Notes: generated from the letters alone by a model not told the origin. DNA of 64,000 bases from Eledone cirrhosa (GCA_964016885.1 OZ024741.1:108934001-108998000); one strand, 5' to 3'; counted from the stretch's first letter, positions 52,938 through 62,403 are shown. A program made the numbers and translations.

Positions 52938-52988
52938 AGTTTAAGCAAAGAATCGCTGCTTTCATCCTTAATGGGATCTTCTGAAACT
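52938..52988 (-). ncRNA. Non-canonical hammerhead-like motif, copy 1
   Basis: AGUUU-CAGAAGA-UCCC..GGAU-GAAAGCA..UGCUU-AAACU. Confidence 0.5.
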
Positions 52989-53193
52989 AACTTCTGTGAA
53001 CGCAGAAGTAAATAGTTCGAAAAACGTTGCAGCCGAAGGAAAACAGTAAAGACGATACTTTGGTTCGTGAAGACGTTCCCTGGCAATGAGCGGAAAAGAG
53101 CGAAGATAATACGTCGTTATGTCGTGCGTGAGAACAATTACACGCAAAGACAGACTAGACAGTCGTAGACTAATATTATATTTAGGAAACAGA

Positions 53194-53371
53194 TGGATTG
53201 GCAGTATCGGTAGAGGGTCGGAGCTATGCTTTCCAGCATAGTTACGTCCCTTTACGGTCTGAGTTCAAATCCCGCCGAGGTTGACTTTGCCTTTCATCCT
53301 TACGGGGTCGATAAAATAAAGTACCAGTAATGCACTGGGTAATTGCTGGCCTTGTGTTTAAAGTAGAAACA
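53194..53371 (+). mobile_element. SINE family A with 19-bp TSD
   Basis: ATTATATTTAGGAAACAGA at 53175-53193 and 53372-53390. Confidence 0.93.
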
Positions 53372-53439
53372 ATTATATTTAGGAAACAGAATGATTCTCG
53401 GCTTCAGAGTTAAGAATAAAATAAATAAATTAGTAGAAC

Positions 53440-56400
53440 GAAAATGCCTACCTCCTATTCACGACCCTCCAGAGACATTTCAACTCTGTTTGACAGACAC
53501 GACGGAGGAACCATCGTAGTTTTTGCGTAATTCCGCGTTTCAGATGACGTCCTTCGGAGCAAAGCTTGCCTTGGAACGTGGGTTCATACCGACTTTCAAG
53601 GTCCAAGGGCAGGTCTACCACTTGATTGGGTCTTTTCAGACTCTGGCAGAAAAGGCTCCTCAATTTCTTCAGTTATACTTTGTTGGAAACTATCAGGAGC
53701 AGGTAGAGATGCGAAACTCTATTTCGTCCGAAACTGACATTGGAATCATAATAAAACTTCAAGAAATGCTTCATGACAAAAACAGCTATGTTCGCAGTTT
53801 CAAGTATGCTTTGGAAACAGCCACCGACCAAAACTTTAGTGTGGTCATACATGCTGACCGAAGGCCATCTGGAGAACACGCTGATCGGTTCAACGCACCA
53901 ACATATAATGAGATTGCTGCGGTTATTTGTGGTGAACAGCACAACAAGAGAGATATTCTAAAGCACCGAGACAGCACATTACAGCGTATCAATGAGACAC
54001 ATAGGTCCTACGATGCACTCCAGTATCCATTGCTATTTGTCAACGGCGAGGACGGTTACCATTTCGGCATTCCTTAACATTCGGCAGGCAATGGTGAGGC
54101 ACATCTTAGCAAAACTGTCACCTGCATGGATTTCTACGCTTTCCGATTTATGGTAAGGGACAATTCATTCAACCATCTACCGTTCTAGGGACCTTTTCCA
54201 ACAATTTACTGTTGATATGGCCGTTAAAATGGAGTCCGAGAGATTATGGTTCATTAAATTAAATCAAAAGAAACTTCGATCTGAATGCTACATTCATCTA
54301 CCCGATGGAATTAACAACGACGTATCCCCAGACAATTTTGCCTTCAACATTCACAGGGGGACCCGATACATGCACGAGAGGACTCAGGACGCCATGGCTT
54401 ACGTACGACATTATAGGCGCCCCGACCTTTTCATAACGTTTACATGCAATCCCAAATGGAAGGAGATTTCAAACGAACTGTTCCACGGTCAAGCGCCAGG
54501 ACACAGGCACGATTTCATAACAAGTGTGTTTCGCCTGAAATTATCCAAATTAATGGATTTATTAAAGAAGGACGGTTGAATGGCAGAAACGAGGGCTGCG
54601 CATGCCCATATCTTGATTTGGTTGGTTACAAAAAACAGTTCAAGCTACATCGACAAATTCATTTCTGCCGAACTACCTGATCCGTCGATTGACAAGGACC
54701 TCTTCTTTATAGTCACATCAAACATGGTCCATGGCCCTTACGGATATGGACTCAATACGAAGTTCCCGTGTATACACGACGGAAAGTGTACAAAACGATA
54801 TCCCAGGCCGTTTTTACAGGAAACACAGACTGGCGGTGACGGATATCCGTTGTATAGGCGCAGGAGACCTGAAGACGGTGGGTTCACAGCAAAAGTTGGT
54901 GAACGCGAATTCGACAACAGCTGGATAGTGCCATATTGCCCCTCCCCTTGAAAGCGTTCAAGGCCCATATAAACGTCGATTTTTTTTCAACTCAGTAAAA
55001 TCAATTAAATACGTTTGTAAGTACGTAAACAAGGGACTGGATGCTGCCGTCTTTGGTCTTCGTCATGAAAACAGTAGAGACGAGGTATCTGACTACCAAG
55101 CAGGCCTGTACATTAGCAACAATGAAGTCTTTTGGCGCGTTTTTAGCTTCCCACTGCACCAACGACACCCCGTCATTAAACAACTTGCCGTTCACCTTGA
55201 AAATGGTCAACGGATGTATTTCAACGATGCAACAGCTGCCCAGCTAGCGATCCCACCAAAGGAAACTACACTCACCACTTTTTTCAAACCTTGTCAACAC
55301 GACGACTTCGCTCGAACTCTGCTGTATTCTGGAAAACCGTCTTACTATACATGGAACCGGACAAAATGGCTATGAAGGAAGGTAGGACAAAGGGTGGTTG
55401 GACATCCAGGCATCAAATTCGACAATTGCCTTGGGCGAGTTTATACGGTCTACGCTACCCAACACGAATGCGTCTACCTGCGATTTCTGCTTCATGAGGT
55501 AAGAGGGCCGACCAGCTTCGCTCATCTGAGAACCGTCACTGGATACGCCTGCGGAACGTACAGGGAAGCCTGCTTGAGGCGTGGACTTTTAGAAGACGAC
55601 GCACAATGGCATGCAACCTTGACGGGAGCTGCCATCTCACAATCATCCCGTAGTATAAAAGCACTTTTTGCTATCCTCTTGCATGTCTGTGAATTGAGCG
55701 ATCCTTACTCTTTATGGCAAAAGTTTAAAGATGATTTCGCAGACGAATATAGGCGTCTCGCTCAATTGCAAACTCAAAACTTAGATGTCGGCTTTTCAGA
55801 CGCTATATATAACAGAGCTTTGATCGATATTGAAGACAGGGTGGCTTCAATGGACGGAGATATCTTGGAGAAATATGTGCTTCCGCAAACACTTAGAGAT
55901 GCGCCATCTGACATTCCCAACGACATTATACGTGAAACGTCATATGATGTCGACGAACTCGAAAGGTATGTTGAAGAAAATGAACCAAAACTTCTAATGG
56001 ATAAAAAACAAGGCTAAAACATTGTCGTTGATTCCATCCGTAATCGGGGAGAGGGCATATTCTTCCTGGACGCACCTGGAGGCACTGGAAAAACATTTGT
56101 AATCAAACTTTTACTCGCTGCAGTGAGGCAACACGGAAACATCGCATTGGCCGTGGTTCTTCCGGCATTGCAGCAACTTTGCTGCCTGGTGGCAGGACGG
56201 CCCATTCTGCCTTCAGTCTTCCTCTCAACGTAGCATCATCTGAGACACTCACGTGCAACATCAGCAAGTCTTCCGGAAAAGCACTGGTGTTAAAGCGCTG
56301 CCTACTAATTGTTTGGGACGAATGCACAATGGCCCACAGGGCGGCTTTCGAGGCATTAGACCGGTCACTCAGAGACATCAGGGACTGTCAAGAACCAATG

Positions 56401-60026: not shown

Positions 60027-60435
60027 AACTATAAGTGATCAACATGATCTATATGTCACTAAACAACTAACTATAAGTCATCAACAAGAACTATCTATCA
60101 CTAACTATACATGTCCCACAGGATGTATACGTCACTAAACTACTAGTTATAACTGATCAACAATATCTATCTATCAAAACGTTAATAACCTAAATATGTT
60201 TTCCACAAGAACTATTTGTCAGTAAACCACTAGCAATAGTGATGAACAGGATCTATATGTCACTAGGTCACTAACTGTAAGTTATCAGCAAGAACTATAT
60301 CGCACTAAACCACTAACTCTAAGTGATCGACAGGATCTATATGTCACTAAGTCACTAACTAGAAGTGATCAATAAGAGCGCTGTCACTAATCCGCTAATT
60401 ATAATTTATCAGCAGGATCTATATGTCATTAAACC
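60027..60435. repeat. Degenerate about 42-bp minisatellite
   Basis: Unit similar to ACTATAAGTGATCAACAGGATCTATATGTCACTAAACCACTA. Confidence 0.8.
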
Positions 60436-61207
60436 GGGAACAACATGTCTTCGACTCCGAGAAATGTATAATATATTTTCCGCTTATCTGCGACACAGAT
60501 ATGTGTATGTTTTGTAGTCTATTTAATTTTTGTATGTGTTTAGAAATAGTTTTTTTATGTGCGTGTTTGCTGTTTCTTACTTCGTATTAGTTCAGCCCTG
60601 AGCTATAACATGCAGATAATATTTTCGAATAATTAGGTTCGACCAGAGATCAATTGTTCCATATATATCATACTTACAGAAGATAATAAAATTGTTCGTT
60701 CAATCATTTAGTTGCTTATTTTGTTAATCTGTTCTTGTATACTATTTTTCTTGAGATGACAGAGATGGTGGATGAGACCAGTTGTAATCGGTAGGAGTTA
60801 GACAACTCTGGTTCGCCCTTCATTTTTTTGTTACACTAAATTCTCTTTTAAATTAAATAGCATATCTCAGAAAATGTTCTGAATGAACATGATGTCAAAC
60901 ATGCTTCTACGGAGATCAAGCAATGATATCTGCTTTTTACTCATCCCAACACGTAGAAGGACTGACATCCACGGACCAAGAACACTGGAGTACTCAAATC
61001 TAACTAATGGGAAATTTAATCGTCTGTGTTAGATGTTTATCCCACCCGGACGCCTACTATCACTGCTATTGAAGCTAACAGACTATGGTGGGACATATGT
61101 ACCGTTGTCGCCTCTTTTAACAGCATAGTTAATTGTGTACTTGTGAGGGTATTTATAATATATTCTCATATAGTTCCCAACGTTATCACTATTAACGTTT
61201 AACATAG

Positions 61208-61422
61208 AGCGGTGGATTGGCAGAATATCTGCCGTCCTACTATTCGTAGACCATTGGGCAAAATGTTTTGCTCTTTACATTATGAGTTCAAATCACGCCG
61301 TCAGTTGTGTCTTTCATCCATTTGGTGTCGATAAAATAAAGTAGCAGACAAGTACTGGGGCTGATATAATTGATTTTCCCCTCTGGCGAATTGTTGGTCT
61401 TGTGCCTAAAGTTGAAATTATT
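61208..61422 (+). mobile_element. Degenerate SINE family A relative
   Basis: gcggtggattggcag...gagttcaaatc...gtcgataaaataaagta. Confidence 0.75.
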
Positions 61423-62311
61423 TAACTTTTTCCAGAATAGTGATTGACTATTTCTGTATTCTCGTCAAATATAAACTTTGTTCTGTGATACCATAGAGAA
61501 ACATTATTCCCATGCTACGGTTTTAAATAGTGTTGGGCTTTTTAGGCTTTATATCTTTTAAAATCATCGCTGTCAGATCAGCTTCAAACAAAGATAAATG
61601 AAAACTCGGTGATGATGAAGTCTTAGGGTTATTTATATTTTTATCGCTCTTTTCTATGGCAATTTAGGTTGGTTTATGTGTTTTCATAAAATTGATTAAC
61701 ATTTCAGGACTTGGAATAACAATTGCTATCTGTGACAACAACGATGGATAACTGTTGTCGAAGCTGCTTAGCTATGAAGTTGTTTACGTTTACACGGTTT
61801 TTGTCTCACTAAATAATTATCTGCTTCATATAACCAACAGGAAGGTTTTCACGATGTTTTTGATAGCAGCGAATTAAATGTTGATAAGAATGTAAAGACG
61901 GACTGAAGTAACCAGATTACTCATGTCGTTTTAAATATACTCACAATTGGTTGTATTACTAGTGTCTGTATTAGTGTTGTCATCAGTGTTTGTCACGACC
62001 ATAGAAACTCGGTAAGACATGAATGACAAGAAATATTTCATATAATCCGGTTTAAATAAAGGTTAGCTTGCCAAGTAAAATAGATTCTTTTATATAAAAA
62101 AAAAAAATGCAGTAGTTGCGGATCTATATTGCGTTAGCTCAGTATAATTACAGAAAAAGTCTATAACACGCAATTTTAAACGGTTCGCTATAACTGAAAA
62201 TATGTTGATGAGCTAGCCATCTTTTAGAATGAATGTACATATTTAAATACATATGTGTGTATGTGTAAGCATAAATGTGTGTAAGCATATATATATATAT
62301 ATATATATATA

Positions 62312-62403
62312 TATTAGAATAACAGATTAAAGTTTAAGCAAATAATCGCTGCTTTCACCCTTAACGGGATCTTCTGAAACTTTATTAATCTGTTATTTTA
62401 ATA
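62312..62403 (-). ncRNA. Non-canonical hammerhead-like motif, copy 2, closed by a long stem I
   Basis: AAAGUUU-CAGAAGA-UCCC-GUUAA-GGGU-GAAAGCA..UGCUU-AAACUUU inside an about 25-bp imperfect inverted repeat. Confidence 0.55.

What the first reader, a model, noticed from the sequence alone, without database searches (positions are those of the whole stretch)
52938..62403. Two-copy hammerhead variant with a non-canonical core (CAGAAGA, U10.1/U11.1, CUU triplet)
Both copies (52938-52988 and 62329-62383, minus strand) keep stems I, II and III in the correct register around GAAA. They share U4A, a U/U apposition in place of G10.1-C11.1, and a CUU cleavage triplet, while differing elsewhere. The 5.2-kb HHR, from an unrelated family, also has U/U at 10.1/11.1. 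Shared deviations may mean a real variant core rather than decay (inference). U4 is normally near-invariant, so the motif could also be inactive.
Basis: partly seen in the sequence, partly recalled or inferred. Interest (0 to 1): 0.7.

Follow-up and report, generated by a model that had tools for sequence, protein, structure and literature searches.

The report
Long-conserved U4A hammerhead in Penelope retrotransposon
The two motifs are end-pieces of a very abundant jumping gene whose hammerhead-shaped RNA has kept an A where known hammerheads have a U across two old lineages while its loops changed, so it is likely a slow, protein-helped self-cutting RNA rather than a decayed one (cutting untested).

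Summary
The motifs are real but are not independent evidence. Both are 3' end-pieces of one Penelope-like retrotransposon family (Hydra-type motifs) with at least 21,952 exact copies of this core. CAGAAGA is the family master, so this is not copy decay.

U/U at 10.1/11.1 and the CUU triplet are not special. U/U stands in 14 of 25 published Hydra families, and another family here has U/U plus CUU with a normal U4. Only U4A is new.

New here: an older sister family (61-74% protein identity) also has A4 (27 of 27 copies). Between the two masters, stems and core differ at 1 of 53 positions, loops and N7 at 11 of 25, and the flank at 37 of 119. The fold, core included, is under selection, but no compensatory pair swaps were seen.

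Published mutagenesis says CUGA mutants cut poorly, and no RNA test was possible. Best reading: a slow, likely protein-assisted hammerhead (0.5). The main rival is a non-cutting protein handle (0.3). The scan noted this family before on other DNA of this genome.

The parts
52938..52988 (-). Copy 1 type I hammerhead-shaped motif; A4 at 52982; first stem II pair broken (C.A); predicted cut 52943/52942
52914..53446 (-). 5'-truncated 3' pLTR fragment of the Penelope-like element, ending about 25 bases after the predicted cut in (TA)n
53194..53376 (.). SINE-like repeat inserted into the pLTR fragment, with a target-site duplication of about 19 bases
52851..52921 (.). (TA)n target microsatellite of copy 1
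62331..62381 (-). Copy 2 hammerhead-shaped motif; A4 at 62375; predicted cut 62336/62335
62307..62381 (-). Short arm of copy 2 (pLTR tip with tail, ending in (TA)n 62287-62314)
62385..62501 (+). Inverted (fold-back) long arm of copy 2: pLTR sequence downstream of the cut site, joined through the stem I homology, ending in (TA)n 62499-62575
5198..5279 (-). Hammerhead of an unrelated family: canonical CUGAUGA, U/U at 10.1/11.1, AUA triplet, long stem II insert; inside a 617-base repeat unit
53447..57430 (+). Broken Helitron abutting copy 1; not part of the hammerhead element

Best explanation
Both motifs are truncated copies of the hammerhead-shaped RNA in the pseudo-LTR of a Penelope-like retrotransposon with Hydra-type motifs, whose master lineage has kept A at core position 4 for a long time, and the motif is likely still a slow self-cutting ribozyme that would need the element's own protein to fold. 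Shown: the element, the fixed A4, and conservation of stems and core against loops and flank. Inferred: that this conservation reflects cleavage after CUU; that protein binding offsets the lost U-turn; and that new copies are made mostly from uncut RNA, with reverse transcription starting about 25 or about 120 bases downstream of the site. The two window copies themselves are truncated, non-coding insertions.
For: Element: copies with a 709-aa RT plus GIY-YIG ORF between two hammerheads about 3.2 kb apart. Fixation: A4 21,952 against non-A 858 exact matches. Of the first 30 non-A hits, 23 are fold-back junctions. 53 of 53 hammerheads in protein-anchored loci have A4 (two loci were fetched twice). 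Age: young copies differ by 1.3-10%. An older family, sampled by its flank, has A4 in 27 of 27 copies that reach the motif (27 of 30 loci), and its ORF remnants are 61-74% identical to the young protein. Selection pattern between masters: core 0 of 14; stems plus core 1 of 53 (an extra T at a loop border); loops plus N7 11 of 25; flank 37 of 119. Fisher p 6e-6 and 3e-6; core alone against flank p 0.011. The one core position that changed is N7, the free one. Precedent: the anole PLE hammerhead cuts only with its protein (PMC11167929), and a viroid U4C variant is weak in vitro yet supports infection (PMC3088659).
Against: In comprehensive mutagenesis, all single and double CUGA mutants except the C3/G8 swap had low activity (PMC9901934 passages; the U4A value itself was not seen). 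No compensatory base-pair swaps between the masters. The intact motif prefers another fold: -15.1 against -9.9 kcal/mol, with proximal stem I pairing at 0.05-0.08. 0 of 100 copies begin at the predicted cut, but the canonical control family gives only 2 of 100, so this says little. Hammerhead cleavage was dispensable for insertion in vitro in the anole element. The selection test rests on one comparison of two lineages and cannot tell catalysis from a bound fold.
Confidence: 0.5

Rival explanations
1. Non-cutting handle: the motif no longer cleaves but its tertiary fold is kept because the element protein binds it and starts reverse transcription just downstream; A4 may be favoured because it spares the template from being cut.
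For: Low activity of CUGA mutants. Cleavage was not needed for insertion in the anole element. Copy ends fall at fixed points downstream of the motif. The family is very abundant. Earlier scan notes reached this reading.
Against: All 14 core positions, including G8, G12 and a cleavable NUH triplet, stayed fixed while N7 changed. A mere handle would not obviously need all of them.
Confidence: 0.3
2. Splice-acceptor overlap: U4A creates an AG behind a pyrimidine run (TTTCAG), so A4 is kept as the 3' splice site of a pLTR intron, and splicing there would remove the ribozyme from the spliced RNA.
For: The pyrimidine-rich loop and both AGs are kept in old and young masters. A donor-like GTAAGT lies about 830 bases upstream in 24 of 30 young loci. 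In D. virilis Penelope the intron ends at helix I (PMC4209133).
Against: 0 of 138 distinct genomic copies show a sense-strand jump to either AG. No GTRAG donor in the 3' regions of 4 old-family loci. It does not explain the rest of the core.
Confidence: 0.1
3. Dead relic: U4A killed the ribozyme in an ancestral master and the motif is carried along without selection.
For: No covariation. Poor predicted folding. Naiads proliferate without hammerheads (PMC8557442).
Against: Stems and core are far more conserved than loops and flank between families that are 61-74% identical in protein.
Confidence: 0.1

Closest known systems
Hydra-clade Penelope-like elements and their pLTR hammerheads (Craig et al. 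2021, PMC8557442; section 11, passages and supplement part 2 read)
   Same: C-terminal GIY-YIG, DKT, CxCx5C linker, (TA)n targets and a 3' hammerhead. U/U at 10.1/11.1 in 14 of 25 listed families; U17 in 10 of 25.
   Different: All 25 have U4 and G16.2; this family has A4 and C16.2, a longer stem III loop, RWR for RWK, and a unit of about 3.2 kb. It is not Hydra-1_Obim (different protein start and hammerhead).
Minimal PLE hammerheads (Cervera and de la Pena 2014, PMC4209133; parts 1-2 of 4 read)
   Same: Type I motif in pLTRs, mostly single truncated or inverted copies; low activity in vitro.
   Different: Those have a minimal palindromic helix III and act as dimers, with G10.1-C11.1 conserved; the only core variant reported in the parts read was U3-A8.
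Natural hammerhead core variants (Perreault et al. 2011, PMC3088659; section 8 and passages read)
   Same: Natural core changes with low but real activity; U10.1-U11.1 is natural and the best-tolerated mismatch; viroid U4C.
   Different: No U4A in the text read; those were rare single motifs, not the master of a family of over 20,000 copies.
PAc Poseidon element of the anole (Frangieh et al. 2024, PMC11167929; passages read)
   Same: Two RT start sites downstream of the hammerhead giving a tail; uncut RNA as template.
   Different: Protein-assisted cleavage was shown there; here it is only inferred.

Membership tests
Type I hammerhead ribozyme | Three helices around a core in type I order | tested here: met
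   copy 1 has one broken stem II pair
Type I hammerhead ribozyme | CUGANGA core | tested here: not met
   CAGANGA in the family master
Type I hammerhead ribozyme | GAAA box, C3-G8 pair, A15.1-U16.1 pair and NUH triplet | tested here: met
Type I hammerhead ribozyme | G10.1-C11.1 pair | tested here: not met
   U/U; a known tolerated variant
Type I hammerhead ribozyme | Covariation in stems | tested here: inconclusive
   Stems invariant, no swaps, between two masters
Type I hammerhead ribozyme | Stem I - loop II tertiary contact | not tested
   An extended stem I with an internal loop is present; the contact was not modelled
Type I hammerhead ribozyme | Site-specific self-cleavage | not testable with these tools
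   Needs an assay
Hydra-clade PLE | Single ORF with RT and C-terminal GIY-YIG | tested here: met
   709 aa, YRDD at 346, YIG at 598; Pfam scan gave no significant hit
Hydra-clade PLE | DKT motif and CxCx5C linker | tested here: met
   (DKT in 9 of 10 ORFs; L137 has NKT)
Hydra-clade PLE | RWK motif | tested here: inconclusive
   RWR
Hydra-clade PLE | No CCHH motif in the endonuclease | tested here: met
   By inspection of the ORFs only
Hydra-clade PLE | Insertion into (TA)n | tested here: met
Hydra-clade PLE | Canonical hammerhead in the pLTR | tested here: not met
   U4A
Hydra-clade PLE | Placement in the RT tree | not tested
   No reference proteins were on hand as data
Non-LTR retrozyme | Short non-coding unit | tested here: not met
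   The full element encodes RT and endonuclease
Helitron | Motif is part of the Helitron end | tested here: not met
   0 of 11 other Helitron copies carry the segment

The most novel reading that the evidence does not exclude
A retrotransposon lineage has evolved a hammerhead whose U-turn is broken on purpose (U4A), so that the RNA is cut only when the element's own protein binds and supplies the missing contact: a natural protein-gated ribozyme with a core thought to be incompatible with cleavage.
Probability: 0.25. Interest if true: 0.72.

Novelty: new variant of a known kind. Interest (0 to 1): 0.45.

Why it matters
Why Penelope-like elements carry hammerheads is an open question; they have even been suggested to be parasites of the element (PMC8557442). 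This genome offers a matched natural pair: an A4 lineage and a U4 family that share U/U and CUU. If the A4 motif cuts, the accepted core rule is too narrow and CUGA-based searches miss whole families. If it does not cut, long conservation of a dead core would show that the fold has a non-catalytic job in transposition.

Tried and rejected
Helitron end: rejected, 0 of 11 other Helitron copies carry the segment. Neptune clade, my first guess: dropped for Hydra-type motifs. A canonical U4 subfamily: not found; 23 of the first 30 non-A hits are fold-back junctions and 1 is a T4 with a near stem I. A profile scan of 1.0 Mb of fetched DNA showed no U4 relative. A second independent CAGAAGA family: rejected; the candidate has T4 in 99 of 100 listed copies, so its 3 A4 rows are decay. 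A third family with some A4 copies (3 rows, 3) was not resolved. Copy starts at the cut site: 0 of 100 against 2 of 100 in the control, read by eye, uninformative. Spliced copies: 0 of 138. RNA: no RNA holder listed, so no reads were laid. Metagenome pattern scan: 3 hits, none with stems or a PLE protein match. Homologue search: 483 hits, best 57% identical, no genomic context, not used further. In one search L119 was read on the wrong strand; corrected, it also has CAGAAGA. Papers not held: Lunse et al., Hammann et al. 2012, Nelson and Uhlenbeck 2008. PMC11014351 passages held nothing on position 4.

Full report
Observation. Both motifs are present as described. Copy 1 has a broken first stem II pair, and the long stem I of copy 2 comes from a fold-back junction. 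The 5.2-kb motif has a canonical CUGAUGA core with U/U. Rfam does not detect copy 1.

What it belongs to. The window lies in a 3.0-Gb genome rich in dispersed repeats. Copy 1 is a 5'-truncated fragment (52914-53446) with a SINE-like insertion, next to a broken Helitron; 0 of 11 other Helitron copies carry the fragment. Longer copies run upstream into an RT plus GIY-YIG ORF. Ten fetched long-ORF loci show open frames of 709-761 aa; 5 of them have a hammerhead on each side, about 3.2 kb apart. DKT, CxCx5C, RWR and (TA)n targets match the Hydra clade as defined in PMC8557442 section 11; I built no tree. Copies end about 25 or about 120 bases downstream of the predicted cut, like the two RT start sites of the anole element (PMC11167929 passages).

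Is A4 fixed? The exact core has 21,952 matches with A and 858 with another base. Of the first 30 of the 858, 23 are fold-back junctions, 5 have C or G, 1 more looks like a fold-back, and 1 is a T with a near stem I. In loci chosen by protein, 53 of 53 hammerheads have A4. Young copies differ by 1.3-10%, median 6.4%. So the consensus is not CUGANGA.

Are U/U and CUU part of the variant? No. File S2 of PMC8557442 lists 25 Hydra-clade families: all with U4, 14 with U/U, 10 with U17, none with C16.2 (my count). PMC3088659 section 8 reports natural U10.1-U11.1 as the best-tolerated mismatch. A family in this genome with 6,049 exact copies has U/U and CUU with T4 in 99 of 100 listed copies; its ORF remnants are 44-48% identical to the A4 family.

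Is the variant old and under selection? A pattern that left position 4 free found 399 older relatives with other loops. Because that pattern fixes core letters, I resampled by the upstream flank alone. 27 of 30 loci reach the motif, and all 27 have A4; the 3 dropped loci break off before it. These copies are 88.6% identical to their majority, and the larger ORF matches upstream of the motif are 61-74% identical to the young protein. Old against young master: core 0 of 14 changed; stems plus core 1 of 53; loops plus N7 11 of 25; flank 37 of 119; p 6e-6, 3e-6 and, for the core alone, 0.011. There are no compensatory swaps. The pattern is that of a maintained hammerhead, but it is one comparison of two lineages and cannot separate cutting from binding.

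Against activity. PMC9901934 (passages) found low activity for all CUGA mutants except the C3/G8 swap; its two held supplements were listed but not read, and the U4A value may be in data I could not see. The intact motif is predicted to misfold on its own. No copy of 100 starts at the cut, but the control family gives only 2 of 100. For activity: a viroid U4C variant is weak yet sufficient in vivo, and the anole PLE hammerhead cuts only with protein and is dispensable for insertion in vitro.

Splice alternative. U4A creates an AG after a pyrimidine run, and a donor-like site lies upstream in 24 of 30 young loci. No spliced copy was found among 138, and the donor was not seen in 4 old loci. PLE introns are known (PMC2377424 passages; PMC4209133).

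Literature. Searches for hammerhead with U4A, with CAGANGA and with uridine turn plus position 4 gave 0 papers; U4C gave 1. The library lacks most subscription papers, and Lunse et al. on PLE hammerhead variants was not held, so absence from print is not established. Hammerhead numbering and the roles of G8 and G12 are from established knowledge. Earlier scan notes on this genome describe the same family.

Verdict. A real, fixed, old core variant in a known kind of system. U4A is the only novelty. Slow protein-assisted cleavage 0.5, non-cutting handle 0.3, splice overlap 0.1, dead relic 0.1. Interest 0.45.

Noticed in passing
window 53447-57430 (+): Broken Helitron (Pfam Helitron_like_N and PIF1) lacking its 5' part, with a 3' hairpin near 57405-57420; at least 40 related copies in the genome.
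   Followed up: partly
window 4936-5714 (-): 617-base unit with a partial tandem repeat and a canonical hammerhead with a long stem II insert; the same family occurs in L082 and L088; looks retrozyme-like.
   Followed up: partly
L173-L192: Family of 6,049 exact copies with a minimal dimer-type hammerhead (palindromic stem III, U4, U/U, CUU) tied to a related PLE ORF; a ready positive control.
   Followed up: partly
G000:C1:43087955, C1:56905757, C1:133961655, C1:191044904: A third minimal hammerhead family has several copies with A4 and a shared stem I change; it could be a small independent U4A subfamily or just decay.
   Followed up: no
L053-L082: Fold-back insertions often join inside the core and create an apparent CUGAAGA; such junctions can mislead hammerhead searches.
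   Followed up: yes
L137 pLTR, about 830 bases upstream of the core: Donor-like GTAAGT kept in 24 of 30 young loci; possible pLTR intron.
   Followed up: partly
window 12113-15859: 45-base tandem array of 83 copies.
   Followed up: no
window 32799-44298: Nested or repeated LINE-like RT fragments on the minus strand.
   Followed up: no
window 9753-10309: Inverted repeat of about 560 bases between (TA)n runs, probably another fold-back PLE end.
   Followed up: no
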